A DNA stretch of 64,000 nt from Kofleriaceae bacterium (GTDB lineage: Bacteria > Myxococcota_A > Polyangia > Haliangiales > Haliangiaceae), in the NCBI GenBank assembly GCA_035715365.1, contig DASTLB010000022.1:144242-208241 (forward strand), written 5' to 3'. Made by a program: the position numbers and the translations under genes. Below are positions 44,993 through 61,075 of the stretch, in pieces (position 1 is the first letter of the stretch; the number at the start of each line of letters is the position of its first letter). Below the pieces are notes generated by a model, which made no database searches, was not told where the DNA came from, and saw only the letters and a program-made list of their open reading frames with translations.

Positions 44993-45688
44993 TTACATGT
45001 GTTTCGTCGTCGGTGATGCGTCGCGGCGGGAGCCGACGGCGAGCAACATCGGGAACGCGGGCATACCGGCGCTCCATAGCTGGAACGGCTCGACGCGATC
45101 GAACGCGAAGCCGTGGCGCTCGAGCGCGGGCAGCGGGTTGCGATTCATGTGACAGCCCTGGCCGTTGAGCCGGAGCCAGAGCGGATCGAGCGCGTTCATC
45201 AGCGCACCGGCGACGCGATGCTCGCTCTTGACGTGCTCGACGAGCCGCAGCGCACCGCCCGGCCGGACGACGCGCGCGAGCTCGCGAGCGACCGCATCGA
45301 CGTCGGGCACCGAGCACAGCACGAGCGCGACGACCGCGGCATCGACCGACGCATCCGGCAGCGGGATCGCTTCGCCGCGACCCTCGAGCACCTCGATCGC
45401 GACGCTCGCCGACTGCGCGGCCTCGTGCGCGTGCTTCGCGAACGCGGCATCGGGCTCGATCGCGACGACGTCGACGTCGCGGTAGTGGCGGAACATCGAT
45501 CCGGTCCCGCAGCCGAGCTCGAGCACGCGACCGGACAGGCCGGCGACGAGCTCGGCGCGCTTCGCGGCGAGACCGGCGGCATCGGCGCGCGCGATCAGCG
45601 TCGCGTAGAGCTCGTCCTGCGGCAGCCTGTACTTCAGCGCGAGCGTGGCGGGAGCGTGGCGGCACAGATGCGCGATCTCGGCGAGCAT
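44993..45688 (-). CDS. class I SAM-dependent methyltransferase
   Basis: Motif [10 protein letters not shown]; post-I acidic residue; start at MLAEIAHL. Confidence 0.6.
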
Positions 45689-45741
45689 GCCTACGTATAG
45701 CCGGTTGGACGGTCTATGCTCGCGCACTCGCAACTGGGGAG

Positions 45742-47304
45742 ATGAAGACAATGGCGTTGACGAAACCCGCTCCGAGCTCGGCGGACATCGGCCTCGTGGG
45801 CCTGGCCGTGATGGGCCAGAACCTCGTGCTCAACATGGCGGACCATGGATTTCAGGTCGCGGTCTACAACCGCACGACGGCCACGACCGAGAAGTTCGTC
45901 GCGGATCACCCGCCGGGCGTGTTCGGGAGCGCCGGTGGCGGGCTCGTGCCGGCCGCGGAGCTGCGCGACTTCGTGCAGTCGATCAAGCGACCGCGCCGGA
46001 TCGTCATCCTCGTCAAGGCGGGCGGGCCAACCGACGCGGTGATCGACTCGCTCGTCCCGCTCCTCGAGAAGGGCGACGTCGTGATCGACGGCGGCAACGC
46101 GCTCTACACCGATACGATCCGGCGCGAGAAGGCGCTCAACGACAAGGGCCTGCTGTTCGTCGGCTCGGGCGTCAGCGGCGGCGAGGAAGGCGCGCGCTTT
46201 GGCCCCTCGCTGATGCCGGGCGGCAAGCCCGAGGCGTGGGAGATCCTCAAGCCGGTGTGGATGGCGATCGCGGCGAAGGTCGACGAGAAGACCGGCAAGC
46301 CGCTCGAGGGCGCCGCGCCCGGCAAGCCGATCCAGGGCGGCGTGCCGTGCACGACGTACATCGGTCCGGATGGCGCCGGCCACTACGTCAAGATGGTGCA
46401 CAACGGCATCGAGTACGGCGACATGCAGCTGATCTGCGAGGCGTACTCGATCCTGCGCTACAGCCTCGGCAAGACGCCGGCGGAGTGCTCGGCGATCTTC
46501 AAGGAGTGGAACCAGGGCGACCTCGACTCGTTCCTGATCGAGATCAGCGCGGACGTCCTGCAGCAGAAGGATCCGGTCACCGGCAAGCCGTTCGTCGACG
46601 TCGTCCTCGATAGCGCCGGCCAGAAGGGCACCGGCAAGTGGACGAGCGTGAACGCGCTCGATCTCGGGATCCCGGCGGCGTCGCTCGCGGACGCGGTGTT
46701 CGCGCGCCTGATCTCGGCGCAGAAGGACGAGCGCGTCCGCGCGTCGAAGATCCTGAAGGGCGGCTCGGCGAATCTCGGCAAGGGCCTCGAGGTCACCGTC
46801 GAGGCGGTGCGCGACGCGCTGTACTGCAGCAAGCTGTGCTGCTACGCGCAGGGCTTCGAGCTCTACGCGCAGGCGTCGATCGAGTACAAGTGGAACCTCG
46901 ACCTCGCCGCGATCGCGCAGATCTTCCGCGGCGGCTGCATCATCCGCGCGCGGTTCCTGCAAAAGATCACCGAGGCGTTCGCGAACAACCCGAAGCTCGA
47001 CAACCTGCTCGTCGATCCGTACTTCGTCGACCAGGTGACGCGCGCGCAGGACAACTGGCGCAAGGTCGTCGCGCGGGCCGCGCTCGACGGCACGCCGGTC
47101 CCCGTGTTCGCGAGCGCGCTGTCGTATTACGACAGCTATCGCGCGGACACGCTGCCCGCGAGCCTGCTGCAGGCGCAGCGCGATTACTTCGGTGCCCACA
47201 CGTACGAGCGCGTCGATGCGCCGCGCGGCGAGTTCTTCCACATCGACTGGCCGGATCCGAAGCGACCGCAGCTCAAGGCGAGCGAGCTCGGCATGTCGCG
47301 CTGA
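45742..47304 (+). CDS. gnd: 6-phosphogluconate dehydrogenase (NADP+, decarboxylating)
   Basis: [19 protein letters not shown]-binding motif; full-length conserved Gnd pattern ([16 protein letters not shown]). Confidence 0.9.
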
Positions 47305-47307
47305 CCG

Positions 47308-48129
47308 TTGAGATACAATGCGCCCATGCGCTGGGTGCATCGCGGGCTGGTGCTCGCCTCGTTGTGTGTCGTCGCCTGTGGCTCTGGCAAGAAGCAGGTG
47401 GCGCAGCCGAAACAAGATGATCGCGTCAAGCAGCTCGAGGACGAGCTGGCGAAGACGAAGCAGGACCTCGACAAGGAGCGCGCCGAGGCGGACGAGCTGC
47501 GCAAGAGCGACTCCCAGAAGGCCGACGAGAACAAGGCGCTGCAGGACAAGCTGTCCGCCGCGGTCGGCCAGGCCGGCGAGGTCACGACCGCCGACGGCGC
47601 GGTGAAGCTGCAGCTCGTCGACCAGATCCTGTTCCCCGTCGGCGAAGCCGATCTGACGCCGCGCGGGAAAGAGGTGCTCGCGAAGGTCGGCAGCGCGCTC
47701 AAGGAGGTCGACAAGCAGATCTGGGTGCAGGGTCACACCGACGATCAGCCGATCATCCTCAAGAAGAAGCCGGACAAGCCCGAGAAACCGGACAAGGCCG
47801 ACAAGCCGGATCCCAAGGCGAAGCCGGGCAAGCCGGGCAAGGGCGGCAAGGACGGCAAGGACGGCAAGGATGCGAAGGACAAGGTCGCCGTGAAGCCGGC
47901 GGAGCCGGAGCCGAAGAATGACGCGGTGCTGCCGTTCGTGACGAACTGGGAGCTGTCCGCGGCGCGCGCGCTCACGGTCGTCCACTACCTCCAGGACGAG
48001 GCGAAGATCGACCCGACTCGGCTCGCGGCGGTCGCGTTCAGCCAGTACCGCCCGGTCAGCAAGCAGCGCGCGAAGAACCGCCGGATCGAGATCGTGCTCT
48101 ATCCCAAGGTCGCCATCTCGCCAAAGTGA
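47308..48129 (+). CDS. OmpA/MotB-domain lipoprotein with coiled coil and K/P/D-rich linker
   Basis: Lipobox LCVVAC; C-terminal OmpA motif NWELSAARALTVVHYL...NRRIEI; start could be 47326. Confidence 0.7.
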   Translation: MRYNAPMRWVHRGLVLASLCVVACGSGKKQVAQPKQDDRVKQLEDELAKTKQDLDKERAEADELRKSDSQKADENKALQDKLSAAVGQAGEVTTADGAVKLQLVDQILFPVGEADLTPRGKEVLAKVGSALKEVDKQIWVQGHTDDQPIILKKKPDKPEKPDKADKPDPKAKPGKPGKGGKDGKDGKDAKDKVAVKPAEPEPKNDAVLPFVTNWELSAARALTVVHYLQDEAKIDPTRLAAVAFSQYRPVSKQRAKNRRIEIVLYPKVAISPK

Positions 48130-49238: not shown

Positions 49239-50132
49239 ATGCGCCTGGGGATCTTGCTCGTGTGGCTCGCCGGTTGTCAGTTCGCGCCGGTGCCGGTGCA
49301 ACCCGGCAGCGACGCGCCGGACGGCAGCGGCAGCGACGGCGACGTGACACCGCCGATCGACGCGTGCGCGGCATGTCCGGACAACGACGTCGCCGCCGGC
49401 GCGATCGCGATCACCGACACCCGCCACGTCAGTGGCGACTTCACGGCCGCGCACGACGATCTCGCGACCGGCTGCGGACCGACCGGCGCGCGCGATCTGT
49501 TCTACGAGCTCGTCGTGCCGTCGCCGCAGGTCGTCTACATCGACACGATCGCGACCGCGTTCGACGGCGTGCTCTCGCTGTACCCCGGCTCGTGCACCGC
49601 GGCCGGCGCGCAGCTGTCGTGCGCCGACAACCCGTGCGACGGCTCGCTGCACGCGCAGCTCGCGCGTTCGCTCGCGGCCGGCACCTACTGCCTCGTCGTC
49701 GAGGATGGCGGCAACACCGCGACGACGTTCGATCTCGACGTCGAGTTTGCGGGCCGCGATGGCATCGAGCTCGCGGGCGCCGGGCCGTGGAACCTGTCGG
49801 GCAACACGTGCGATGGCATCGACGGCGCGGACCCGAGCTGCGAGTCCGGCGCGTCCGCGGCCGGCACCGGCAAGGACGTCATGTACTGGATGACCGTGTG
49901 CCAGGGCTCGCACGCGGTGCGCGCGTCGACGTGCGCGAGCACCGGCTTCGACTCGATCGTGTACATGCGCAGCCAGTTCGAGGAGCTCGCGTGCCGCGAC
50001 GATGGCTGCACGCCGGCGTCGAACCACGGCTCGCTGATGACCTCGTCGACGACCGGCAACGGCCTGATGATGATCATCGTCGATGGCTACGACGGCGCGT
50101 GCGGCAGCTACACGCTCAACGTCCAGCCGTGA
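49239..50132 (+). CDS. Cys-rich secreted lipoprotein (hypothetical)
   Basis: Lipobox LVWLAGC; 20 Cys; no catalytic motif recognised. Confidence 0.5.
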   Translation: MRLGILLVWLAGCQFAPVPVQPGSDAPDGSGSDGDVTPPIDACAACPDNDVAAGAIAITDTRHVSGDFTAAHDDLATGCGPTGARDLFYELVVPSPQVVYIDTIATAFDGVLSLYPGSCTAAGAQLSCADNPCDGSLHAQLARSLAAGTYCLVVEDGGNTATTFDLDVEFAGRDGIELAGAGPWNLSGNTCDGIDGADPSCESGASAAGTGKDVMYWMTVCQGSHAVRASTCASTGFDSIVYMRSQFEELACRDDGCTPASNHGSLMTSSTTGNGLMMIIVDGYDGACGSYTLNVQP

Positions 50133-50135
50133 CCG

Positions 50136-51134
50136 TCAGCGTGCCCTGGGGTGCGCGGCGAAGAAGTCGAGGATCACCTCGCTGCCGAAGTCGCGCGTGA
50201 CGTTTCCCGACCGCGCGAGGTACGGCCAGCCGGACGGCCAGGTGTGGCCGCCACCGTCGACGACGATCAGCTCGGTCGCCGCGGTGCAGCCGGTCCAGGT
50301 GCGCCGGATCGACGTCGCGTGATCCGTCGGATCGCGATCCGGGATCGCGGCGGTCTCGTACGCGGGCCGGCAGCCGTTGCGCTTCGCCCAGCCGGCCATC
50401 GTGGTCTCGACGTCGGCCTTGACGCCCTCCTGCTCGAGGCAGCCCTGCGCGCCGCCGGCGTACGGCCAGCACGGATCCGTCGAGCCGTGGATCGCGAGCA
50501 CCGGCACCGCGCCGCACGCGCCGCCGTCGTCCGCGTGCTGGTTTGCACCGCCGACCGGCGCGATCGCCGCGATCACGCCCGGGCGCTCGCAGCCGATCCG
50601 GTGCGCCATCGCGGCGCCGTTCGACAGCCCGGTCGCGTAGATCCGGCGGTCGTCGATCGGCGCGAGCGCGCGCACCGCCGCGAGCAGGTCGTCGGTGAAC
50701 TTGACGTCGTCGACATGCTCGGCGCACGCGCGCCCGCTCGCGCAGTACCTGCCGGCCTTGCCGCCACCGGCGTTCCACGTCCGCATCTCGCGCGCGAGCT
50801 TCGCCGGCGTGCCGTCGGGTGACACCACCGCGAACCCGCGCGCGGTCGCGAGCGCGACGAGGCATTTCGGATCGCGCTCGTCCCCGGCCGGGCACGTCAC
50901 GCGGCGCGCCGCCTCGCGATTGCCGCCACCGCCGTGATACGCGATCACGAGCGGCAGCGGCGTCTTGCCATCCCACGTCGACGGCACGGCGAGGTCGAAG
51001 CCGCGATCCGGCCAGCCCGCGACGCTGCACGCGATGTGGTCGCCGGGGCGCGCGTGCTTGCCGGTGCACGCGTCGTCGGCCGGGTGCGAGCGACACGCGG
51101 CGATCATGGCGACGAGCACGACGCCGCGGATCAC
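50136..51134 (-). CDS. PHB-depolymerase-family esterase (alpha/beta hydrolase, LpqC-like) lipoprotein
   Basis: GTG start preceded by GGAG; lipobox VAMIAAC; nucleophile elbow GLSNGAAMA; HGGGG oxyanion region. Confidence 0.65.
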   Translation of the reverse strand: MIRGVVLVAMIAACRSHPADDACTGKHARPGDHIACSVAGWPDRGFDLAVPSTWDGKTPLPLVIAYHGGGGNREAARRVTCPAGDERDPKCLVALATARGFAVVSPDGTPAKLAREMRTWNAGGGKAGRYCASGRACAEHVDDVKFTDDLLAAVRALAPIDDRRIYATGLSNGAAMAHRIGCERPGVIAAIAPVGGANQHADDGGACGAVPVLAIHGSTDPCWPYAGGAQGCLEQEGVKADVETTMAGWAKRNGCRPAYETAAIPDRDPTDHATSIRRTWTGCTAATELIVVDGGGHTWPSGWPYLARSGNVTRDFGSEVILDFFAAHPRAR

Positions 51135-51622
51135 GGCGTCGGCTCCGGTCCGGCGACGAGCCCGGTGCGTACCGCCGCGAGCGCGAGTGCGAACCGCGCG
51201 GCACGTCCGAGATCGCCATCGAACGGGACGAGCGCGCGATCGAGCCAGTACTCGACCTCCGCCGACGACTGGCCGACCGTGCCCGGCGCGCCGAGATCCG
51301 CGAGCTTGATCGGGCCGTCCGCCGCCGCGCGGCCGAGCCCGAGATCGAGCAGGCACAGATCGCGGTGCGCCGCGAGCCCGCGATCCTCGACGTGCGCCGG
51401 CAGCGAGCGCTCGCCATGCAGGCACACGATCAGCGCGAGCGGCGTCGCGCCCGAGTCGCCCATGATCATCGCGACGGTCGCCCACGCCGCGCTCGCCTCG
51501 AGCCCGGTCGCGCCGCGCGTCAGCACCGCATGCGCGGGCCGCAGCGTGTCCGCCCAGTTTCCCGGGCGCCAGCGCGCCGCGCACGCCAGCAGGTCCCACG
51601 ACTCGACGACCGCCTCGGCCAT
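51131..51622 (-). CDS. hypothetical protein with degenerate kinase-like catalytic-loop motifs
   Basis: LHGERSLPAHV...DLGLGR reminiscent of small atypical kinases; stop overlaps downstream GTG (GTGA). Confidence 0.3.
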   Translation of the reverse strand: MAEAVVESWDLLACAARWRPGNWADTLRPAHAVLTRGATGLEASAAWATVAMIMGDSGATPLALIVCLHGERSLPAHVEDRGLAAHRDLCLLDLGLGRAAADGPIKLADLGAPGTVGQSSAEVEYWLDRALVPFDGDLGRAARFALALAAVRTGLVAGPEPTP

Positions 51623-51631
51623 GGCTCGATG

Positions 51632-52267
51632 CTACTCGACGCGCAGCTTGCGCGCTCGCTCGACGCGGCGGCGCGACAGCTCGACCCCGATCGCATCGAG
51701 GCCGTGCGCGTTCGCGACCGCGAGCACGCTGCCCATCCCGCAGAACGGATCGACGACACCGCGCAGGCCGATCGATGCGACGAACGCGACCGCGGCCTCG
51801 CACGCGGCCTTGCCCATCGCGCGCGACCACGTCATGTGACCGAGCGCGGGCAGCACGTCGGCCGTCGACGCACCGGGCTCGACGCGCCGCGCGCGGCTCG
51901 TGCACACGAGGTGCGCGTACGCGGGCCGCCCCATCGTGATCGTGCCCGGTGGCACGCGGCACACGATCTTGTGCCAGAGCACGTGGCTGCCCGCCTGCTC
52001 CGCGCCGCGCATCACGAGGTACGCTTTGTCGATCCAGCGGCCGTCGTGCTTGACGTCGGTCTGGTAGAAGATCGCGACCGCGTCGTCGGCGACGGCCCGG
52101 CACAGCGTCGCGGTGGTCTCGACGAACCACGCCTTCCAGCGCTCGACGCCGAGCTCGGGCAGCTCGGAGTGATCCGGCAGCGAGGTGATGATCGCGTGAT
52201 CGGGCGCGAGCGGATGCTCGGCGAGATACGCGAGGCCATCGCCGTGGTGGATCACGCGAGCGGTCAC
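51632..52267 (-). CDS. N6_N4 DNA-methyltransferase-like small protein with degenerate motif IV
   Basis: Beta-class order: motif IV region AIITSLPD (expected DPPY/F) then motif I VVDPFCGMGSVLAVA...GVELSRRRVERARKL. Confidence 0.45.
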   Translation of the reverse strand: MTARVIHHGDGLAYLAEHPLAPDHAIITSLPDHSELPELGVERWKAWFVETTATLCRAVADDAVAIFYQTDVKHDGRWIDKAYLVMRGAEQAGSHVLWHKIVCRVPPGTITMGRPAYAHLVCTSRARRVEPGASTADVLPALGHMTWSRAMGKAACEAAVAFVASIGLRGVVDPFCGMGSVLAVANAHGLDAIGVELSRRRVERARKLRVE

Positions 52268-52276
52268 GCCGTGACG

Positions 52277-54076
52277 TTACCGCGCGGCCGCGAGCTCGGG
52301 CTCGCTCGCCGACGGCTTCACAAACTCGTCTTCCTCATCAACGAGCCCGCTCGGCTTGTCCGCCGGCAGCGTGTAGCGGCGCTCGATCGCCTCGCGGACC
52401 TCGGCGCGCGTGCCTTCACGCTGCTCGATCAGCGCGACCTCGTCGGCGAGCTCGTCGTCCTTGACCTCGACGCGCAGCCACTTCGAGTAGTCGTGGTTGC
52501 GCAGGTGATAGATCCACGTCTCGTCGTCGACGCCGTCGGCGAGGTGCACGAACAGCTGCAGGTTGTGCGCCTTGAGGTTCAGCTTCGCGTCGGGTCCGCG
52601 GAAGTAGAAGCTGCGCGTCTTGCCGAGGTTGCCTTCCATGTACTTGCGCTTGTGGCGCTTGCGCTCCATCTTCGGCGGCTCGGTCTGCAAGATCGTCGTC
52701 TCGGTGTTCGCGATGTTCCAGTACAGCGCCTGACCGGTGCCGAGCTTGCCGCCGTTCGGGATCGCCGCGAGCCGCGGACACGGTACCTCCGCGAGCTGGC
52801 TCAGCTCGTAGACCGAGTCCGTCGGCTGCTCGCCGACCGCGACGAGCGTATCGAGCGTCTTGATGATCGCGGGCGCGACGCTCGTCGGGTGCACGGTGAC
52901 GTAGAGCGTGCCGTGCGGGCGCAGCGCCATCTCGGCCGCGGGCTCCCACGACGCCGGCAGCAGGTGGTGCGCCTCGTCGACGACGAGCCAGTGCGGCCGC
53001 CCGGTCCGCGTGCGCAGCTCGGCGAGCACCGGCAGCAGCTCGGCGAAGAACTCCGGGCGGTGCTCGACCGCGATGCCGAGCAGGTTGACGACGACGTTGC
53101 GCGACGGATCCTTCAGCACGTCGAGCACCTCGGACGCGAGCGGCGCGCGCGTCGGCGAGCCGAGCACGACCGCGAGCTCGACGTTCGCGTAGTCGCCTTC
53201 TGGATCGATGATCGCGAACTGGTAGTTGCGCTGCGACAGCCGCTCGAGCACGCCGGTCGTCAGCGTCGACTTGCCGCTGCCCGACGTGCCGCACACCATC
53301 ATGTTCGTCGCGTACGGATCGATCGAGAGCGCGCGGTCGCCGTCCTTGCCGAGCAGGACATGGTGGCGCGTCAGCTTCGGCGCGGCGATCGCGAGATCGT
53401 CGGCGAGCAGGTGCTCGATCAGCTCGCTGACCCCGGCGCCGTGGTCGGCGGTCGTGACGACATCGGCGTGCGCCTTGAGCGAGGGCAGCGCGTTCGCGAC
53501 CGCGACGCCGGCCTCGCAGCACGTCAGCAGCGCGTGGTCGTTCTCGGCATCACCGACGCCGACCACGTTGTGGCGCGACAGCCCGAGCTCGAACAGCGCC
53601 TGCGCGAGCCCGGTCGCCTTGTTGACGCCGGACGGCAGCACCATGACGGCGCCCTTGTTGAAGATCACCTGGAGCTCGAGCCCGAGGTCGTGGATCACGT
53701 GCAGCACGGTGTCCTGGTGCGGCTCCCACGTCGCGACGATCGCGTGACCGACCGCGATCCGATCGACGCCGCGCCGCCGCAGCTCGTCGACAAACTCCGG
53801 TGGCGGCGGCTCGCACGACGACCGGATCTCCTTCGTCGCGGGCTCGTACACGAGCGCGCCGTTCTCGGCGACGATCCGGTCGAACAGCTCGGGATGATCG
53901 AGCAGGCCGAGCAGCTCCTCGAGCTGCCGCCCGGTCACCATGATCAGCTTGCGTCCGGACTCGCGCAGCCGCCGCAACGCACTCCACGTGTCGTCGTCGA
54001 TCCGCCCGTGGTGCGCGAGCGTCCCGTCGTAATCCGCCGCCAGAGCGTGGTACCGCACCCAGCGATCTCGCTGCAC
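52277..54076 (-). CDS. HAD-IIB phosphatase domain fused to HerA/FtsK-like (DUF87) P-loop ATPase
   Basis: HAD motifs ADYDGTL, VTGRQ, GDAENDHALL; Walker A CGTSGSGKST; IIDPEGDY; Walker B LVVDEAHHL. Confidence 0.65.
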   Translation of the reverse strand: MQRDRWVRYHALAADYDGTLAHHGRIDDDTWSALRRLRESGRKLIMVTGRQLEELLGLLDHPELFDRIVAENGALVYEPATKEIRSSCEPPPPEFVDELRRRGVDRIAVGHAIVATWEPHQDTVLHVIHDLGLELQVIFNKGAVMVLPSGVNKATGLAQALFELGLSRHNVVGVGDAENDHALLTCCEAGVAVANALPSLKAHADVVTTADHGAGVSELIEHLLADDLAIAAPKLTRHHVLLGKDGDRALSIDPYATNMMVCGTSGSGKSTLTTGVLERLSQRNYQFAIIDPEGDYANVELAVVLGSPTRAPLASEVLDVLKDPSRNVVVNLLGIAVEHRPEFFAELLPVLAELRTRTGRPHWLVVDEAHHLLPASWEPAAEMALRPHGTLYVTVHPTSVAPAIIKTLDTLVAVGEQPTDSVYELSQLAEVPCPRLAAIPNGGKLGTGQALYWNIANTETTILQTEPPKMERKRHKRKYMEGNLGKTRSFYFRGPDAKLNLKAHNLQLFVHLADGVDDETWIYHLRNHDYSKWLRVEVKDDELADEVALIEQREGTRAEVREAIERRYTLPADKPSGLVDEEDEFVKPSASEPELAAAR

Positions 54077-54169
54077 GACACGTGCCGCGGCGTGCCGGCT
54101 GCCCCGCCTGCGGGCTTCTCCGAGCAGCGATGCACCACGCGCGCGCGCCGGGCGAGCGCCAGTGCTCGC

Positions 54170-55105
54170 TCAGCACTCGAGGTCGTGGAACAGATCGGTC
54201 GAAAAGTACCGCTCCATGCGATCGCACAGCACGGTCGCGATCGTCTTGTCCGGACCGATGCGCTTCGCGAGCACGCGTGCCGCCGCGAAGTTCAACCCGC
54301 TCGACGGACCGACCGGCAGACCGCGCGTGATCAGCTCGCGCGCCGCGCACATCGCGTCGTGCTCGTCGATCCGGATGTCCTCGGACAGCCCGATCTCCGC
54401 TGGATTCAAGATCGTCGATAGCCCCTCGACGATGCCCGGGATGCCACCGCACACCTCGGGCTGGCCCTCGAAGCACGTCGAGCCGTGCGTCGGGACCGCG
54501 CGCGCGAACACCGTCGGATGCCCGGCCTCGCGCAGTGCGCGGGCGATGCCCATCAGCGTCCCCCCCGTACCGACACCGGCGACGAAGCCATGGATCGTGG
54601 TGCCGATCTGCTGGATCAGCTCCGGGCCGGTCTCGCGCTGGTGTGCACGCGCGTTGAGCTCGTTCTCGAACTGCCGCGTGAGGAAGACCTTCGGATTGTC
54701 GGCCGCCATGCTCCGCGTGCGCTCGATCGCGCCGAGGATGCCGCCCTGCTTCGGGGTCAGGACGCACTCACCACCGTAGCGCTTGATGATCAGCATGCGC
54801 TCGCGGCTCACGTTCTCCGGCATCACCGCACAGAACCGAACACCGAGCACCGCGCACGCCATCGCCAGCGCGATCGACGTCGAGCCGCTCGACGCCTCGA
54901 CGACGATCGTGTCCTCGTCGATCGCGCCGGTCTCGACGCCGTGGCCGAGGATGAACGCGGCGACGCGGTCCTTCGTCGAGCCCGACGGCAGCAGGTACTC
55001 GAGCTTGAGCCAGATGACGCACCGGCTCTCCTCGTCACGCAGCGGGATCGCCATCGTGCGCGCCGCCATGCGGATCAGCGTCGCCTTGCGCTCGGCGAGA
55101 GACAT
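54170..55105 (-). CDS. cysteine synthase / CBS-like PLP-dependent enzyme
   Basis: PLP lysine motif SGSTKDR; Gly-rich loop GVGTGGT. Confidence 0.7.
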   Translation of the reverse strand: MSLAERKATLIRMAARTMAIPLRDEESRCVIWLKLEYLLPSGSTKDRVAAFILGHGVETGAIDEDTIVVEASSGSTSIALAMACAVLGVRFCAVMPENVSRERMLIIKRYGGECVLTPKQGGILGAIERTRSMAADNPKVFLTRQFENELNARAHQRETGPELIQQIGTTIHGFVAGVGTGGTLMGIARALREAGHPTVFARAVPTHGSTCFEGQPEVCGGIPGIVEGLSTILNPAEIGLSEDIRIDEHDAMCAARELITRGLPVGPSSGLNFAAARVLAKRIGPDKTIATVLCDRMERYFSTDLFHDLEC

Positions 55106-55138
55106 CGACTGGAGGATCACGCGCCTACCGTAGACGGC

Positions 55139-56050
55139 ATGGTCGCCGACGAGCAAGGGCGTCGCTCCGACAGACCGCCGAGAGACTCGCCAGGTCGTTG
55201 GCGGTCCAACGGTCAACCCGGCTATGATGCGGTGATCACCGTGAAAGCCGCCACGGTTCCTCCACCGAGCTTCGCGATCCGGCGGGTCGTCGACAACCGC
55301 GAAGTCCGCATCGTCTACCAGCCGCTCGTCGATCTGAGGAGCCGCAAGGTCTTCGCCTACGAGGCTCTCGTGCGCTCGAAGGCGCCCGAGTTCACGAACC
55401 CGCTGCAGCTGTTCGCCGCGGCGGTCGATCACTCGTGTGTCGGCGAGCTCGGACGCGTGCTGCGCCAGCTCTCGGTCGAGAACTGTCCTCACTTCCCGCT
55501 GTTCCTGAACGTCCACCCCGCGGAGCTCAACGAGCAGTACCTCGTCCGCACCGACGATCCGATCTTCGACCACGGCCACGACGTCTACCTCGAGATCACC
55601 GAGGGCGTGCCGCTCTCGCACTTCCAGCTCTGCCAGTCGATCCTGTCCGAGGTGCGCGGCCGCGGCATCTCGCTCGTCGTCGACGATCTCGGCGCTGGCT
55701 ACTCGAACCTCAAGTACATCGCCGACCTCCACCCGCGCATGGTGAAGCTCGACCGCGACCTGATCGCGGGCCTCGTCCACGACTCGCGGATGTTCAAGCT
55801 GGTGTCCGCGATCGTCGTGCTGTGCAAGGAGCTCGAGGCGCAGGTCGTCGCCGAGGGGATCGAGACCGTCGAGGAGCTCGACGCCGTCATCGACTCGGGC
55901 GCGCGCTACGGCCAGGGCTACCTGCTCGCGCGCCCGAACTTTCCGCTGCCCGACGTCCAGTGGCCCGCGGAGCTCGCCGGTCCGCGCGAGCGCCCCACGG
56001 TCCGGCGAGAGCGACTGGCAGCGCAGAAGAAACCCGCACGCCGGCGCTGA
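55139..56050 (+). CDS. stand-alone EAL-domain c-di-GMP phosphodiesterase
   Basis: YQPLVDL, YEALVR, EITE, DDLGAGYSNL, KLDRDLI, EGIET motifs; alternative GTG start at 55232. Confidence 0.7.
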   Translation: MVADEQGRRSDRPPRDSPGRWRSNGQPGYDAVITVKAATVPPPSFAIRRVVDNREVRIVYQPLVDLRSRKVFAYEALVRSKAPEFTNPLQLFAAAVDHSCVGELGRVLRQLSVENCPHFPLFLNVHPAELNEQYLVRTDDPIFDHGHDVYLEITEGVPLSHFQLCQSILSEVRGRGISLVVDDLGAGYSNLKYIADLHPRMVKLDRDLIAGLVHDSRMFKLVSAIVVLCKELEAQVVAEGIETVEELDAVIDSGARYGQGYLLARPNFPLPDVQWPAELAGPRERPTVRRERLAAQKKPARRR

Positions 56051-57526: not shown

Positions 57527-58188
57527 GCGATGAATGCACTCCGGTTGAGCTCGTTGTTCTTGCAGTCGCCGGTCGCGCTGCGCTGCCACGTGCAGAATTC
57601 ATCCTCGAGCTGCGCGAACTCCTCGCCGAGCCACAGCAGGCCGACCTCCTTCTCGAGGTCGGGATCCTTGAACTGCTGCTTGAGGTGGTTCATCACCGCC
57701 TCGGCGCGACCCTTCGACAGATCGCGGTTGTGCTCGACCGAGCCTTCCGGCGACGCGCGCGACACGACGAAGAACCAGCTCGCGCCCTTCTGATCGGCGA
57801 ACACCTTGTCGATCAGCGCGAGGTCCTGCGCGTCGAGATCCGACTTGTCGAGGTCGAACTGGATGATGCCGCCGCGCGCCTTCATCGGCCGGAACAGCGC
57901 GTTGAAGTCGGTGCCGCTCATCGTCGCGACGTTCTTCGCCTGCACCGGCTGACAGCCGCGTCCGCCGTCGGCGCCCATGAGGCCGCAGCTCATGAGCACG
58001 CGGCGCAGGATCTTCTTGAGCTCCGGGTTGCAGTACGCGACATCGGACGCCGACGCGACCGCGGCTTGCTCGGTCGGCTTTGCCGTGGCCTCCGCGAGCC
58101 GGGTCTCGGCGGAGCCGATCCACTTGACGGTGGTCGCCACGGGTACCGCGGCGAGCGCGACGAGAACGACCGCACGCGTGATCATCAT
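57505..58188 (-). CDS. secreted OmpA-like-domain protein
   Basis: Signal peptide; SWFFVVSRASPEGSVEHNRDLSKGRAEAVMNHL (OmpA C-like). Confidence 0.5.
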   Translation of the reverse strand: MMITRAVVLVALAAVPVATTVKWIGSAETRLAEATAKPTEQAAVASASDVAYCNPELKKILRRVLMSCGLMGADGGRGCQPVQAKNVATMSGTDFNALFRPMKARGGIIQFDLDKSDLDAQDLALIDKVFADQKGASWFFVVSRASPEGSVEHNRDLSKGRAEAVMNHLKQQFKDPDLEKEVGLLWLGEEFAQLEDEFCTWQRSATGDCKNNELNRSAFIAWIDCQL

Positions 58189-60068
58189 GGCACACCTCCG
58201 TTGTCACCTTCCGAGGGTGTGGTGACGGGCTTGTCGGCGGGCTTGTCCGCCGGCTTGTCTGCCGGTTTGTCCGCCGGCTTGTCCGCCGGCTTGTCCCCAC
58301 CGGACGCCGGCTTGTCCGTCGCCGTGTCACCGGCGGGCTTGTCGCCGCCCGCCTTGTCCGGGTTCGTCCCGGACGTGCCGGACGGCTGCGTCCCGGACGT
58401 GCTCGCCGAGCCTGTCCCGGACGTGCCGGACGGCTGGGTCCCGGACGCGGCGTTCGTCGCCGTGCCCGACGTCCCGGACGCAGCGTTGTTCGGCGTCCCG
58501 GACGCAGCGTTGTTCGGTGTCCCGGACGCGGCGCTCGAGCCTGTCCCGGACGTGGCGGACGATCCCGTCCCGGACGGCGTCGTGCTGGCCGCGGCCGCGG
58601 AGCCGGGTGCGCCGGGCGGGGGCTCGATCGGCTTCGCGGTCCCGGGGGCGGGCTCGAGCGGCTGCGCCGTGAGCGTCCGGTTCGCGTGGCGGTCGAGCAT
58701 GATCCGCAGCGAGTACTCGAGGCCGAGGTCGACGTCCTCGTCGCACAGCTTGACGTTGTCGACGAACAGCTGCGGCGTCAGCACGCGGATGTTGTTCGAG
58801 ACCGCCCAGCGCAGGCTCTTGTTGAGCCGGCTCTTCGCGTCCGGCGAGCCGACGCACGCGGCGAGCTCGGGGAACCGCTGCTTCACGATCTTCTCGGCCG
58901 CGGTCGGATCCGTGCGAGCGGCATCGCGGATGCGATCTTGCTCGGAGAACGCCCACGCGATCACCTCGGGCGAGCGCTCGCCGGCGCACAGCACCGCCTC
59001 GCTGACCGTGCACGCACCCGGGTGCGTCGCCTCGGTGACCATCCAGTTGCACGTGTTATCGAGCGGGAACAGGATCGCGCGGCGATCGAGCTCGGACGCC
59101 ATCCCCGACGAGGCGAGCCGGCCTTCGAACGCGCGGCACGCCGGGCACAGCGGATCGAGGATCTCGATCGCGGGGGCGCCACCGGGCGCGCTGCGATCGA
59201 CGCGGACCATCACGCCGTAGGTGTCCTCGGGCTTGGCGAGTGCGTCGCACGTGCCGACGAACCGGCCGTGATCCGGCGCGACCGCGAGATAGATCAGCAC
59301 CGGGACGACGACGAACAGCACGCCGATGCCGAATGCACCGGCGAGGAACCGGGTCGACGTCGGCGGCGCATCGACCTCGCGCTCGACGACGAGCGGATGC
59401 GACTCCGTCTCCTCGCGGACCGCATCGATCTTGTCGCTGAGCGCGGGCTCGGTCGCGGCGGTCCACGCCGGCTCGCTCGGGCGCTCGCCGGCCGGCTTCG
59501 CCGGCTTCGTCGCCGGACGCTTGGGACGGATGATCGAGTCACCGCCGGCCTGATGCAGCGCGACCGCTCGCCGCCACAGCGCGACCGCACCGACGAGGCA
59601 GAGCGCGCTCGACGCGTAGATGCAGACGCACAGCTTGCACGTGGTGCCGAGCTTCGTCAGCGAGATGATCAGCATGACGACCGACGTCGCGGCGGGCAGC
59701 ACGGTCGCGAGCGCGAGGAAGCCGGTCGCGCGCGGGTCGTCCTTGCGACGCGTCAGCAGGAGGTCGACCGAGAAGAACGCGATGAACGCGAACACGGCCA
59801 TCGCCGGCAGCGAGATCGGGATGCCGCCCCACACGTGCGATCGAAACACCGACGAGTACGGGCTCATCATCGCGACGTGGCATCCGGACTCGGCGGTCGA
59901 TTGCCCCATGCCCGGAATGAACGAGCAGTGAATGCTGTGCACCTGCCGATCGAGATGCTGAACGAAGTCGTACGTCGACACGCCGGCGAACACGAGTCCG
60001 ACGAACGCGCCGACGAGTACCACCACGAGCCATGGATGTGGTCTCACGCAAGATCCTCCCGTGACCAT
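58185..60068 (-). CDS. VKOR (vitamin K epoxide reductase) domain fused to thioredoxin-like domain, with long S/T/G/P/K low-complexity tail
   Basis: VKOR loop Cys pair (CSF...GC) and TM CxxC (KLCVC); Trx-like CPAC; tail has SGT repeats and (PADK)n. Confidence 0.65.
   Translation of the reverse strand: MVTGGSCVRPHPWLVVVLVGAFVGLVFAGVSTYDFVQHLDRQVHSIHCSFIPGMGQSTAESGCHVAMMSPYSSVFRSHVWGGIPISLPAMAVFAFIAFFSVDLLLTRRKDDPRATGFLALATVLPAATSVVMLIISLTKLGTTCKLCVCIYASSALCLVGAVALWRRAVALHQAGGDSIIRPKRPATKPAKPAGERPSEPAWTAATEPALSDKIDAVREETESHPLVVEREVDAPPTSTRFLAGAFGIGVLFVVVPVLIYLAVAPDHGRFVGTCDALAKPEDTYGVMVRVDRSAPGGAPAIEILDPLCPACRAFEGRLASSGMASELDRRAILFPLDNTCNWMVTEATHPGACTVSEAVLCAGERSPEVIAWAFSEQDRIRDAARTDPTAAEKIVKQRFPELAACVGSPDAKSRLNKSLRWAVSNNIRVLTPQLFVDNVKLCDEDVDLGLEYSLRIMLDRHANRTLTAQPLEPAPGTAKPIEPPPGAPGSAAAASTTPSGTGSSATSGTGSSAASGTPNNAASGTPNNAASGTSGTATNAASGTQPSGTSGTGSASTSGTQPSGTSGTNPDKAGGDKPAGDTATDKPASGGDKPADKPADKPADKPADKPADKPVTTPSEGDNGGVP
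58196..58330 (-). repeat. tandem 12/15-nt coding repeats ((PADK)n) at the 3' end of the VKOR gene
   Basis: Repeating ccggcttgtccg units. Confidence 0.6.
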
Positions 60069-60238
60069 CGTCCCACGGAGTGGCGCGCGGCCCAACCCGC
60101 TCGCGCCGCGTAAGGCGCAGAACGCTCGCGCGCTTGCTACTAACGTGCGCGCGTATCGCACTTCGTTTGTACAGAAACGATGACATCTGTACCGCTCGTC
60201 GACTTCTCGACGACGAACGCGAGCGCTAACGTGCGGGC

Positions 60239-61075
60239 ATGGCCGAGCACGACTGGAATCCGCAAGCGAAGGAGATGGCGGACGAATCGATGGTGCGGAA
60301 TCTGATCGCGCAAGCCGAGGCGATCTGGCCGCAGGAAGCACCGATCGTCGCGAGCTACGGACTTGGGGATTCTTCGCAGGGGGCAGCAGCGCCCGAGGTG
60401 CTCGATGTGGGTTGTGGGATCGGCGAGATCGCGTTCCGGATCGCCGAGCTGTGGCCGACCGCGCGGATCACCGGGATCGATCTCGTCGCGTCGCATCTCG
60501 AGCGCGCGCGCGCCCGCACCGCGAGCTTTGGCGATCGCGTGACGTTTCGCGAGGCCGACGCGCGCGAGCTGCCGCTGCCCGACGCGCAGTTCGATCTCGT
60601 GATCTGCCGCCACGTGCTGCAGGCGGTGCTGCGTCCCGATCTCGCGCTGCGCGAGATGATCCGCGTCGCGAAGCCGGGCGCGCGGCTGCACCTGCTCGTC
60701 GAGGACTACGGGATGATCCACATCTCCGGTGATCCCGCGATCGACGAGTTCTGGCACCACGGCCCGCACGTCTACAGCGCGGCGACCGGCTGCGATCTGT
60801 TCGTCGGCCGCAATTGCCACCAGCTGCTGCACTCGCTCGGCATCACCGACCTCGCGTATCACTACGTCGCGGTCGACACCGAGCGCGTGCCGCGCGAGAC
60901 CTTCGCACGCATCTTCGAGGCCTGGCGCGATGGCTACACCGAGGCGCTTGCGAAGCACCTCCGCCGGCCCGAGCCGGAGATCCGCCGGATGTTCGACGCC
61001 ACGGTCGAATGCATCCGCGATCCCGAGAGGTTCGCGCTCTGGCTGGTCCCGATCGTGACCGCCCGCATGCCGTGA
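60239..61075 (+). CDS. class I SAM-dependent methyltransferase
   Basis: Motif I VLDVGCGIGE; acidic post-I residue. Confidence 0.65.
   Translation: MAEHDWNPQAKEMADESMVRNLIAQAEAIWPQEAPIVASYGLGDSSQGAAAPEVLDVGCGIGEIAFRIAELWPTARITGIDLVASHLERARARTASFGDRVTFREADARELPLPDAQFDLVICRHVLQAVLRPDLALREMIRVAKPGARLHLLVEDYGMIHISGDPAIDEFWHHGPHVYSAATGCDLFVGRNCHQLLHSLGITDLAYHYVAVDTERVPRETFARIFEAWRDGYTEALAKHLRRPEPEIRRMFDATVECIRDPERFALWLVPIVTARMP

What the first reader, a model, noticed from the sequence alone, without database searches (positions are those of the whole stretch)
51131..54076. HAD-phosphatase fused to HerA-like ATPase, beside a degenerate DNA-methyltransferase-like gene and a kinase-like stub
A single 599-aa protein carries complete HAD-IIB motifs (DYDGTL, GRQ, GDAENDHALL) followed by a HerA/FtsK-type ATPase core (GTSGSGKST, IIDPEGDY, VVDEAHHL). 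HerA-like ATPases are recurrent components of anti-phage systems, and I do not recall a described HAD fusion. Immediately upstream on the same strand is a 211-aa N6_N4-methylase-like protein whose motif IV reads SLPD instead of DPPY/F, so it is probably catalytically inactive. Next is a 163-aa protein with kinase-catalytic-loop-like remnants. Start/stop overlaps suggest co-transcription with the downstream esterase gene.
Basis: partly seen in the sequence, partly recalled or inferred. Interest (0 to 1): 0.65.

Follow-up and report, generated by a model that had tools for sequence, protein, structure and literature searches.

The report
Conserved phosphatase–ATPase fusion, not phage defence
The gene really does join a sugar-phosphatase-type domain to a HerA-like ATPase, but it is a stand-alone gene kept in many bacterial phyla, usually near stress and glucan genes, and shows no sign of being an anti-phage system with its neighbours.

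Summary

The interpretation does not hold. The fusion belongs to a very large family (>8000 hits; 1161 clusters at 50% identity) found in at least 10 phyla at 40-74% full-length identity and annotated only as 'HAD-IIB family hydrolase'. It is a stand-alone gene.

- In about 115 further loci none of the window's neighbours recurs, apart from close Kofleriaceae relatives that share local synteny.
- No defence gene recurs, and full-length copies are absent from the phage and viral collections searched.
- The methylase-like gene is itself a strongly conserved, independent Kofleriaceae gene with an invariant TSLPDH motif.
- The 163-aa ORF is lineage-specific, with no detectable kinase homology.

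Recurrent neighbours elsewhere are universal stress proteins and alpha-glucan/trehalose/GT4 genes.

Best guess: an ATP-controlled small-molecule (sugar-phosphate type) phosphatase used in stress or carbohydrate physiology. Its biochemical function is uncharacterised. Interest is moderate to low.

The parts
52277..54076 (-). Three-domain fusion gene (599 aa from the first GTG; the likely true start is GTG at 54058, giving 593 aa)
   Evidence: ORF and translation. Identical 593-aa public protein annotated 'HAD-IIB family hydrolase [Kofleriaceae bacterium]'. AlphaFold2 model with pLDDT 91.5 and pTM 0.83.
53393..54055 (-). HAD-IIB phosphatase domain (residues ~8-228): motif I D15-x-D17-G-T, motif II T48-G-R, motif III K153, motif IV G175-D-x-x-N179-D180, with a C2B cap
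   Evidence: Pfam Hydrolase_3 8e-27 and S6PP 1.5e-10. TIGR01484 above its cut-off. Foldseek to PH1421 (1wr8): E 4e-16, target TM-score 0.84. Motif residues invariant or >=90% conserved in 58 sequences.
52742..53371 (-). HerA/FtsK-superfamily P-loop ATPase core (residues ~236-445): beta-hairpin LGxxxxG, Walker A G263-x-S-G-x-G-K269-S/T, D291-P-E-G-D-Y, Walker B hhhhD367-E368-A-H-H
52361..52741 (-). C-terminal beta/alpha domain (residues ~446-572) with the conserved RHxRKY...SFYFRG...NL...GVDDxTW..HL..GDYSxW motif; related to DUF5752 and T. tenax OrfY
   Evidence: Profile of this domain against PDB 4cso (OrfY): E 3.8e-6, both OrfY repeats matched. PF19027 hit in 11 of 58 family members. Conserved columns. 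In L047 and L048 this domain is a separate ORF directly after a HAD+ATPase gene.
52280..52360 (-). Low-confidence, poorly conserved C-terminal tail (residues 573-599)
   Evidence: pLDDT below 50 for residues 572-599. Absent from most homologues.
51632..52267 (-). Neighbour, not part of a system with the fusion: 211-aa beta-class methyltransferase-like protein with TSLPDH in place of (D/S)PP(Y/F)
   Evidence: Its position relative to the fusion varies between genomes.
51131..51622 (-). Neighbour: lineage-specific 163-aa ORF of unknown function (the 'kinase-like stub')
   Evidence: GC3 0.90. No family match. No homologue in any fetched locus except the identical contig L001.
50136..51134 (-). 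Neighbour: secreted PHB/PHA-depolymerase-type esterase; overlaps the 163-aa ORF by 4 nt
   Evidence: NCBIfam NF050058 at 9.5e-29 (below its cut-off) and Pfam Esterase_PHB at 1.5e-4. Gene calls in L001. Absent from the syntenic relatives L041 and L043.
54170..55201 (-). Neighbour: cysteine-synthase-like PLP enzyme upstream on the same strand (start approximate)
   Evidence: PALP 2e-59; TIGR01136 cysKM 5.6e-69, below its cut-off. Syntenic in L041/L042 at 83% identity.

Best explanation
The gene encodes a stand-alone, mostly vertically inherited three-domain enzyme from a very large family that has not been characterised experimentally. The domains are an N-terminal HAD-IIB (Cof / sucrose-phosphate-phosphatase / phosphoglycolate-phosphatase type) phosphomonoesterase with a cap domain, a HerA/FtsK-type P-loop NTPase, and a C-terminal DUF5752/OrfY-like domain.

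Shown: all catalytic motifs of both enzymatic domains are conserved. The three domains always travel together. The gene has no fixed partner genes. Its window neighbours (methylase-like gene, 163-aa ORF, esterase, cysK-like gene) are unrelated genes that sit beside it through local synteny.

Inferred: the capped HAD domain dephosphorylates a small phosphomonoester, most likely a sugar phosphate or a compatible-solute or glucan-pathway intermediate. ATP binding and hydrolysis by the HerA-like domain, probably as an oligomer, together with the C-terminal domain, gate or localise that activity. The protein would serve stress or carbohydrate physiology, not phage defence.
For: Family size and spread:
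- More than 8000 hits; the best 120 are full-length at 64-100% identity. 1161 clusters at 50% identity with E<1e-30.
- Full-length copies in Myxococcota, Nitrospirota, Acidobacteriota, Desulfobacterota, Planctomycetota, Actinomycetota, Chloroflexota, Alpha- and Betaproteobacteria, Bacteroidota and Cyanobacteria at 40-69% identity.
- Its divergence resembles that of its housekeeping neighbours in the syntenic relative L041: fusion 74%, cysK-like 83%, methylase-like 78%.

Domains stay together:
- All 80 metagenome loci retrieved with ATPase-only patterns carry HAD, ATPase and C-terminal domain wherever the contig allows.
- Split genes keep the pieces adjacent.

No fixed partners:
- All-against-all clustering of ORFs finds no shared neighbour beyond close relatives.
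- In two Pfam censuses of 90 and 116 flanking genes, no family exceeds 5 members.

Recurrent themes among neighbours:
- Universal stress protein: 5 of 116 genes, plus Agrobacterium and L035.
- GH13 alpha-amylase family: 4 of 116 genes, three with CBM_48, and 2 of 90.
- A TreS-maltokinase-sized GH13 gene directly upstream on the same strand in L023.
- GT4, amylo-alpha-1,6-glucosidase and trehalose-6-P synthase lying divergently in two Aminobacter strains.
- GT4-GT4-fusion on one strand in Caballeronia, with GT4 proteins ~50% identical to the Aminobacter one.
- Dps, BON, hemerythrin, Mn-catalase, CBS and PRC-barrel genes nearby.
- A perfect EcfG/RpoE2-type GGAAC-N16-CGTT motif 104 nt upstream of the S. 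meliloti orthologue.

Substrate type:
- The HAD domain superposes on capped HAD-IIB small-molecule phosphatases (1wr8, target TM-score 0.84).
- From established knowledge of the HAD superfamily, not tested here: characterised C2B-capped HAD-IIB enzymes act on small phosphomonoesters.
Against: - No biochemical or genetic data exist for any member. Literature searches found nothing on the fusion or on DUF5752.
- The neighbourhood themes are weak: single-digit counts, and no formal enrichment test against genome background.
- Most loci, including the window, have no sugar or stress gene next to the fusion.
- The closest structural relatives of the ATPase are DNA or protein translocases, not metabolic regulators.
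- OrfY is labelled a transcription factor in the PDB, and the C-terminal domain carries a conserved basic RHxRKY motif. Both fit nucleic-acid binding as well as they fit regulation.
- How the ATPase would control the phosphatase is pure inference.
Confidence: 0.5

Rival explanations
1. Polymer-directed, motor-coupled phosphatase. The HerA-like ring engages DNA, RNA or another polymer. The C-terminal basic domain binds it, and the HAD domains remove terminal phosphates, for example 3'-phosphate or 3'-phosphoglycolate ends after oxidative or desiccation damage. This would be analogous in logic to polynucleotide kinase-phosphatase, acting in a stress-induced repair role.
For: - The ATPase is structurally closest to HerA, DptH, VirB4, B204 and FtsK, all of which are translocases.
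- The C-terminal domain is related to OrfY, labelled 'transcription factor' in the PDB, and has a conserved RHxRKY motif.
- The best HAD matches are archaeal phosphoglycolate-phosphatase-type enzymes.
- The genomic context is stress-related, and the S. meliloti orthologue has an RpoE2-type promoter motif.
Against: - The HAD domain keeps a C2B cap. From established HAD-superfamily knowledge, this cap usually excludes macromolecular substrates, and the PNKP phosphatase domain is capless.
- At the position I take, from memory of the FtsK/HerA motifs (not verified on a structural alignment), to be the arginine finger, the residue is variable: T-x-x-P, with Arg in only 4 of 58 sequences.
- There is no HAS-barrel domain.
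- No nuclease, ligase, Ku or other repair gene recurs nearby.
Confidence: 0.15
2. Single-gene anti-phage defence. A HerA-like sensor or scaffold activates a fused HAD effector that depletes a phosphorylated metabolite or nucleotide during infection, possibly together with the adjacent methylase-like gene.
For: - HerA ATPases are components of Sir2-HerA and DUF4297-HerA systems, and these are among the best structural matches.
- Weak PADLOC hits: mad8 at 2e-10 and HerA models at 4e-5.
- A HAD-containing dNTP-depleting defence module has been reported (bioRxiv 10.64898/2026.01.15.699771; seen in the list, abstract only read).
- The gene sits on large plasmids in some Proteobacteria.
Against: - No core defence protein among 90 flanking genes at E<=1e-10 or among 10 window neighbours. 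An unrelated methyltransferase in the window hits mad2 better than the finding's gene does, so these hits are generic.
- PADLOC HerA models match only ~40 residues around the P-loop.
- MADS is an 8-gene operon, which is not present here.
- No full-length copy was found in 50,697 phage records. A scan of 2.9 million viral contigs, seeded only with two HAD-domain peptide patterns, also found none.
- All 12 plasmid records are non-mobilizable megaplasmids or chromids.
- Identity of 40-74% across phyla with conserved local synteny is not the pattern expected of defence genes.
- The methylase-like gene is not a conserved partner.
Confidence: 0.06
3. The adjacency is functional after all in this clade. 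The fusion and the methylase-like protein (and perhaps the 163-aa ORF and the esterase) would form a Kofleriaceae-specific operon with a joint function.
For: All are on the same strand with 9-nt gaps and a 4-nt overlap. No terminator-like site lies between them. The order fusion then methylase-like gene is kept in the closest relatives L041, L042 and L043.
Against: In other Kofleriaceae the methylase-like gene lies 5 kb upstream of the fusion (L006, L007) or has no fusion gene within 8 kb (L044, L045). The 163-aa ORF and the esterase are missing from L041 and L043. Co-transcription by proximity does not imply a shared function.
Confidence: 0.1

Closest known systems
Capped HAD-IIB small-molecule phosphatases (P. 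horikoshii PH1421 / T. acidophilum TA0175 phosphoglycolate-phosphatase type; sucrose-phosphate phosphatase and Cof/YidA/YbiV sugar phosphatases)
   Same: All four HAD motifs and the C2B cap are present. Foldseek E 4e-16 and target TM-score 0.84 to 1wr8. TIGR01484 scores above its cut-off.
   Different: Those enzymes are ~230-270 aa single-domain proteins. Here the domain is fused to a HerA-type ATPase and a DUF5752-like domain. It scores below the cut-offs of every substrate-specific NCBIfam model, so the substrate is unknown.
HerA ATPases (S. solfataricus HerA of HerA-NurA; bacterial HerA of the Sir2-HerA/Nezha and DUF4297-HerA defence systems)
   Different: - No HAS-barrel domain; a HAD domain occupies the N-terminus.
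- No C-terminal helical extension of the HerA type.
- The presumed arginine-finger position is not conserved.
- No partner nuclease or Sir2 gene.
- The Pfam DUF87 match covers only profile positions 26-92 of 220.
STIV2 B204 genome-packaging NTPase (a minimal FtsK/HerA-superfamily ATPase)
   Different: B204 is a viral, single-domain protein. There is no sequence similarity beyond the motifs (17% identity).
Thermoproteus tenax OrfY (PDB 4cso) / Pfam DUF5752
   Same: The C-terminal helical unit (..H..DYSxW....D..LA.E...) matches both repeats of OrfY at E 3.8e-6. PF19027 is hit in 11 of 58 members.
   Different: OrfY is a 216-aa protein with two copies of the unit and no enzymatic domain. The function of DUF5752 is unknown, and no paper on it was found.
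Polynucleotide kinase-phosphatase (T4 Pnkp / mammalian PNKP) - analogy only, from my own knowledge
   Same: One polypeptide combines a DxDxT HAD phosphatase with a P-loop NTPase.
   Different: - The PNKP HAD domain is capless and acts on DNA or RNA 3'-phosphates.
- Its P-loop domain is a kinase of the adenylate-kinase type, not an ASCE HerA/FtsK ATPase with a catalytic Glu.
- No homology beyond the superfamily level was tested or found here.

Membership tests
HAD superfamily, subfamily IIB | Motif I DxDx(T/V), motif II S/T, motif III K, motif IV (G/S)Dx3-4(D/E) | tested here: met
   D15-Y-D17-G-T19, T48-G-R50, K153 and G175-D176-x-x-N179-D180 are invariant or >=90% conserved in 58 sequences.
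HAD superfamily, subfamily IIB | C2B cap inserted between motifs II and III; match to the subfamily model above its cut-off | tested here: met
   TIGR01484 scores 85.6 bits against a cut-off of 41.8. The model superposes on 1wr8 over 228 columns with target TM-score 0.84.
Specific HAD-IIB enzymes (phosphoglycolate phosphatase, SPP, MPGP, Cof, T6PP) | Score above the equivalog cut-off of the NCBIfam model | tested here: not met
   All are below their cut-offs, e.g. PRK01158 93.5 vs 198, TIGR01487 93.5 vs 122.75, TIGR01482 77.4 vs 107.
FtsK/HerA superfamily of P-loop ATPases | ASCE core fold closest to HerA, FtsK and VirB4 | tested here: met
FtsK/HerA superfamily of P-loop ATPases | Walker A, and Walker B with an adjacent catalytic Glu | tested here: met
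   G263, G268-K269-S/T, D367-E368-A-H-H; each is conserved in >=52 of 58 sequences.
FtsK/HerA superfamily of P-loop ATPases | Conserved arginine finger after the sensor-1 strand (the (T/S)QRP-type motif as I recall it from FtsK/HerA) | tested here: not met
   The corresponding segment reads T394-x-x-P397, with Arg at position 396 in only 4 of 58 sequences. The correspondence is by motif position, not by a verified structural alignment.
HerA proper (DUF87 / HerA-NurA, Sir2-HerA) | N-terminal HAS-barrel domain and a full-length DUF87 match | tested here: not met
   The N-terminus is a HAD domain, and only a two-strand hairpin precedes the P-loop strand. DUF87 is matched over profile positions 26-92 of 220 only.
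HerA proper (DUF87 / HerA-NurA, Sir2-HerA) | Hexameric ring assembly | not testable with these tools
   Only monomer models could be made.
HerA-containing anti-phage systems (Sir2-HerA/Nezha, DUF4297-HerA) | Conserved adjacent effector gene (Sir2 or DUF4297 nuclease) and a full-length match to the defence HerA models | tested here: not met
   No such neighbour in the window or in 206 flanking genes. PADLOC HerA hits cover ~40 residues at E 4e-5 or worse.
MADS (methylation-associated defence system) | Eight-gene mad1-mad8 operon including a methyltransferase | tested here: not met
   There are only weak mad8 (2e-10, partial) and mad2 (2.8e-5, residues 170-207) hits. An unrelated window methyltransferase hits mad2 at 3.8e-11. 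The operon definition comes from bioRxiv 10.1101/2023.03.30.534895.
DUF5752 / OrfY-like domain | Sequence match to PF19027 or to OrfY (4cso) | tested here: inconclusive
   For the window protein alone: PF19027 E 0.031, below the cut-off; 4cso E 0.19. For the family profile: 4cso E 3.8e-6, and 11 of 58 members hit PF19027 at E<=0.01. This indicates remote homology, not curated membership.
Beta-class N6/N4 DNA methyltransferases (N6_N4_Mtase), for the 211-aa neighbour | Motif I FxGxG, catalytic motif IV (D/S)PP(Y/F/W), Pfam gathering score | tested here: not met
   Motif I is present (DPFCGMGS). Motif IV is TSLPDH, invariant in 19 homologues and aligned to the TSPP segment of 2zie, the start of its motif IV. 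The Pfam score is 25.7, below the 26.7 cut-off.
Protein kinase superfamily, for the 163-aa ORF | Detectable match to Pkinase or related models | tested here: not met
   No Pfam, NCBIfam or PADLOC family at E<=0.1.

The most novel reading that the evidence does not exclude
The family is a new kind of motor-coupled phosphatase. A HerA-type ring ATPase would carry HAD domains that act on a polymer threaded or held by the ring and the basic OrfY-like domain. Candidate substrates are damaged DNA or RNA ends (3'-phosphate, 3'-phosphoglycolate) or a phosphorylated alpha-glucan. The protein would be switched on as part of general stress or desiccation responses in soil bacteria of many phyla.
Probability: 0.15. 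Interest if true: 0.7.

Novelty: new variant of a known kind. Interest (0 to 1): 0.33.

Why it matters
If the best explanation is right, this is one more conserved enzyme of unknown specificity. It is still a notable one: a three-domain architecture present in thousands of soil and sediment bacteria from at least ten phyla, hidden behind the label 'HAD-IIB family hydrolase', with no published characterisation that I could find.

It is a cheap and well-defined target. Orthologues exist in tractable organisms (Sinorhizobium meliloti, Agrobacterium, Chitinophaga, Synechococcus PCC 7502). It could reveal how a HerA-type ATPase, normally a translocase, is used to control or direct a phosphatase.

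For genome scanning, the case is a caution. HerA-like P-loop hits and methylase-like neighbours produce weak PADLOC matches (mad8, mad2, HerA) that look like a defence locus but are generic.

Tried and rejected
- MADS. Suggested by the PADLOC mad8 and mad2 hits. Rejected because it is an 8-gene operon, the hits are partial, and an unrelated methyltransferase in the window hits mad2 better.
- Sir2-HerA or DUF4297-HerA type system. Rejected because no partner gene is present.
- A conserved operon of any kind. All-against-all clustering of ORFs in 37 loci and two Pfam censuses found none.
- Literature searches. 'DUF5752', 'OrfY' with Thermoproteus or trehalose, '4CSO', and HerA with HAD or fusion found nothing relevant.
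- RpoE2 regulon. I tried to confirm that the S. meliloti orthologue belongs to it, via PMC6180224, PMC3616915 (supplements) and PMC3738161. I could not map the locus tag, so nothing was found.
- Profile search with the C-terminal domain, meant to find other architectures. It returned mainly fragments and split copies of the same family.
- ATPase-domain profile against PDB sequences. This gave only generic P-loop matches (APS kinase, ABC transporters), so superfamily placement rests on structure comparison.
- Foldseek against afdb50 was not available.
- The promoter and terminator scan of 49900-55400 found nothing.
- GT4 linkage. The GT4 gene next to the fusion in Aminobacter and Caballeronia is far more widespread (155 plasmid records) than the fusion (12 records), and it occurs without the fusion nearby in two inspected records, Phenylobacterium and an S. 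meliloti megaplasmid. It is an occasional neighbour, not an obligate partner.

Full report
**What is there.**
The window is ~70% G+C. The fusion protein is identical to a public protein from a Kofleriaceae (Myxococcota) metagenome-assembled genome. On the minus strand lie five genes in a row:
- a cysteine-synthase-like gene (54170-~55201);
- the fusion gene (52277-54076);
- a 211-aa methylase-like gene (51632-52267);
- a 163-aa ORF (51131-51622);
- a PHB-depolymerase-type esterase (50136-51134).

Homologues and the public gene call begin at the GTG six codons downstream, giving 593 aa. Gaps of 9 nt separate the fusion, the methylase-like gene and the 163-aa ORF. That ORF and the esterase overlap by 4 nt.

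**The fusion protein has three domains, not two.**
- Residues ~8-228 are a HAD-IIB phosphatase. Evidence: Hydrolase_3 8e-27 and S6PP 1.5e-10; TIGR01484 above its cut-off; nearest solved structures are the PH1421 and TA0175 phosphoglycolate-phosphatase-type enzymes and the Cof/YidA/YbiV sugar phosphatases.
- Residues ~446-572 form a small beta/alpha domain with a strongly conserved signature (RHxRKY...SFYFRG...NL...GVDDxTW..HL..GDYSxW). A profile of this domain matches both repeats of Thermoproteus tenax OrfY (PDB 4cso) at E 3.8e-6. Eleven of 58 family members hit Pfam DUF5752.

In a 58-sequence alignment spanning 35-73% identity, the following are invariant or nearly so:
- the four HAD motifs;
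- Walker A;
- the HerA-like DPEGDY motif;
- Walker B with its catalytic Glu (hhhhDEAHH).

Both enzymatic domains are therefore expected to be active.

Two HerA hallmarks are missing. There is no HAS-barrel; the HAD domain sits in its place. The position where FtsK/HerA proteins carry their arginine finger (as I recall the (T/S)QRP motif) reads T-x-x-P, with Arg in only 4 of 58 sequences.

**The family is huge, widespread and stand-alone.**
- The indexed search returned its maximum of 8000 hits; the best 120 are full-length at 64-100% identity.
- The exhaustive search counted 1161 clusters at 50% identity with E<1e-30.
- Full-length members occur in Myxococcota, Nitrospirota, Acidobacteriota, Desulfobacterota, Planctomycetota, Actinomycetota, Chloroflexota, Alpha- and Betaproteobacteria, Bacteroidota (Chitinophaga, Mucilaginibacter) and Cyanobacteria. 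Named genera include Sinorhizobium, Agrobacterium, Aminobacter, Caballeronia and Synechococcus PCC 7502. Identity runs from 40 to 69%.
- Eighty further metagenome loci were retrieved with patterns taken only from the ATPase domain. All show the complete HAD-ATPase-C-terminal arrangement wherever the contig allows.
- In two long contigs the C-terminal domain is a separate ORF immediately after a HAD+ATPase gene. So the three parts stay together even when split.

**The neighbours do not belong to it.**
- tblastn with the window's methylase-like, 163-aa, esterase and cysK-like proteins found them only in the identical contig and in close Kofleriaceae relatives. They are in none of the 80 metagenome loci.
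- In the closest relatives (L041-L043; fusion 70-74% identical) the order cysK-like, (HEAT protein), fusion, methylase-like is kept, but the 163-aa ORF and esterase are absent.
- In L006 and L007 the methylase-like gene lies 5 kb upstream of the fusion.
- In two other Kofleriaceae genomes (L044, L045) no fusion gene lies within 8 kb of the methylase-like gene.
- The methylase-like protein is itself a strongly conserved family: >3000 hits, the best 120 at 71-80% identity. TSLPDH is invariant where T. thermophilus TTHA0409 (PDB 2zie) has TSPP, the start of its motif IV. That pattern indicates a functional protein with altered chemistry or substrate, not a decaying methylase.
- The 163-aa ORF has coding-type codon bias but no homologue and no family match. 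The kinase resemblance is not supported.

**Test of the defence hypothesis.**
- PADLOC hits of the fusion are weak and partial: mad8 at 2e-10, and HerA models at 4e-5 or worse over ~40 residues.
- The mad2 hit of the methylase-like gene (2.8e-5) is weaker than that of an unrelated class-I methyltransferase 7 kb away (3.8e-11).
- MADS is an eight-gene operon, which is not present here.
- Ten genes flanking the locus in the window gave only generic hits, and the only tRNA lies 50 kb away.
- Among 90 flanking genes from 28 homologous loci, no core defence protein is matched at E<=1e-10.
- No full-length copy was found in 50,697 phage records.
- A scan of 2.9 million viral contigs, seeded only with two HAD-domain peptide patterns, also found none.
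- The 12 plasmid records that carry the fusion are all non-mobilizable megaplasmids, chromids or mislabelled chromosomes.
- Divergence of the fusion (74%) is similar to that of its neighbours cysK-like (83%) and methylase-like (78%) in the same relative.

None of this is what a defence gene looks like.

**What the contexts do suggest.**
No gene family is a fixed neighbour, but two themes recur.

*Stress proteins:*
- Universal stress protein is the commonest flanking family: 5 of 116 genes, plus Agrobacterium and L035.
- Annotated loci show CBS, PRC-barrel, Dps, BON, hemerythrin, rubredoxin, Mn-catalase and cytochrome bd genes, and cold-shock genes. Superoxide dismutase domains occur in 2 of the 116 flanking genes of the metagenome census.
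- The S. meliloti orthologue has a perfect GGAAC-N16-CGTT (EcfG/RpoE2-type) motif 104 nt upstream. A near-perfect one (GGAAC-N16-GGTT) precedes the Aminobacter orthologue. About 1.5 strict matches are expected by chance in the 96 kb scanned, so this is a lead and not proof.

*Alpha-glucan, trehalose and sugar genes:*
- GH13 alpha-amylase-family genes make up 6 of the 206 flanking genes, three of them with CBM_48.
- A TreS-maltokinase-sized GH13 gene lies directly upstream on the same strand in a Desulfobulbales locus.
- A glucan-phosphorylase-like gene lies upstream in Mucilaginibacter.
- A sugar transporter and an MscS channel are neighbours in L025 and L012 respectively.
- A GT4, amylo-alpha-1,6-glucosidase and trehalose-6-P-synthase cluster lies divergently in two Aminobacter plasmids.
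- GT4-GT4-fusion lie on one strand in Caballeronia, with GT4 proteins ~50% identical to the Aminobacter one.

The GT4 gene is much more widespread than the fusion, and it occurs without the fusion nearby in two inspected records. The link is therefore occasional.

**Mechanism proposed.**
Shown:
- a capped HAD-IIB active site;
- a hydrolysis-competent HerA-type P-loop;
- a conserved third domain;
- obligate co-occurrence of the three;
- a confidently predicted fixed arrangement (pTM 0.83).

Inferred: the HAD domain dephosphorylates a small phosphomonoester. HAD-IIB partners of GT4/GT20 glycosyltransferases typically perform the last step of compatible-solute synthesis; this is established knowledge for SPP, MPGP and T6PP, not tested here. 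The nucleotide state or oligomerisation of the ATPase, together with the OrfY-like domain, would gate the activity under stress. I put this at about 0.5.

The main rival (0.15) is that the translocase-like ATPase and the basic C-terminal domain direct the phosphatase to a polymer end (DNA, RNA or glucan). A defence role is unlikely (about 0.06).

**Novelty and verdict.**
Each domain is of a known kind, and the family is catalogued, though only as 'HAD-IIB family hydrolase'. I found no description of the fusion, of its ATPase, or of DUF5752 in the searchable literature. It is a new variant of a known kind: an uncharacterised but very common architecture.

The reading as an anti-phage locus with a dead methylase and a kinase stub is not.

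Noticed in passing
window 44993-45751 (-): An ordinary class-I SAM methyltransferase 7 kb from the finding hits the PADLOC mad2 model at 3.8e-11. That is better than the finding's methylase-like gene (2.8e-5). An OmpA/MotB-like gene (47308-48129) hits ZorB models. Single-HMM defence hits here are generic.
   Followed up: partly
L049 (S. meliloti) 6885-6909 (+) and 8993 (-): A perfect EcfG/RpoE2-type general-stress promoter motif, GGAAC-N16-CGTT, lies 104 nt upstream of the S. meliloti orthologue. A GGAAC-N17-CGTT match lies upstream of the small hypothetical gene that follows the orthologue. A GGAAC-N16-GGTT variant precedes the Aminobacter orthologue (L052, L057). I could not confirm regulon membership from the papers I could reach.
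   Followed up: partly
L052 635-5782 and L057 1666-6809 (Aminobacter plasmids); L053 3820-5994 (Caballeronia): In Aminobacter a cluster of GT4 glycosyltransferase, amylo-alpha-1,6-glucosidase and trehalose-6-phosphate synthase lies divergently next to the fusion. In Caballeronia two GT4 genes, ~50% identical to the Aminobacter one, directly precede the fusion on the same strand. The GT4-glucosidase pair is itself a widespread module, occurring in 155 plasmid records.
   Followed up: partly
L047 4677-6387; L048 4676-6381: Split versions of the family: a 416-455 aa HAD+ATPase gene immediately followed by, or overlapping, a 126-128 aa ORF that is the C-terminal domain. These could be real gene fission or frameshift errors in long-read assemblies.
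   Followed up: partly
L055 7001-7666 (Nostoc sp. C052 plasmid): A 221-aa HAD-only protein is 55% identical to the HAD domain of the fusion (query residues 7-240). It lies next to alkaline phosphatase, a PLD-type synthase and zwf. It is either a truncated copy or a free-standing form of the domain.
   Followed up: no
window 50136-51622 (-): The 163-aa ORF and the esterase, which overlap by 4 nt, are both missing downstream of the methylase-like gene in the syntenic relatives L041 and L043. The pair looks like a lineage-specific insertion into a conserved block.
   Followed up: partly
L023 4416-7886 (+): An 1156-aa GH13 protein (Alpha-amylase plus Malt_amylase_C, the size of TreS-maltokinase fusions) lies ~115 nt upstream of the fusion on the same strand, in a Desulfobulbales metagenome-assembled genome.
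   Followed up: no
window 58185-60341 (-) and 47308-48129 (+): Two proteins carry long low-complexity repeat tracts. The 718-aa membrane protein, positional counterpart of the VKOR-domain gene in L043, ends in SGT-rich and (DKPA)n repeats. The OmpA/MotB-like protein has a K/P/D/G-rich repeat linker.
   Followed up: no
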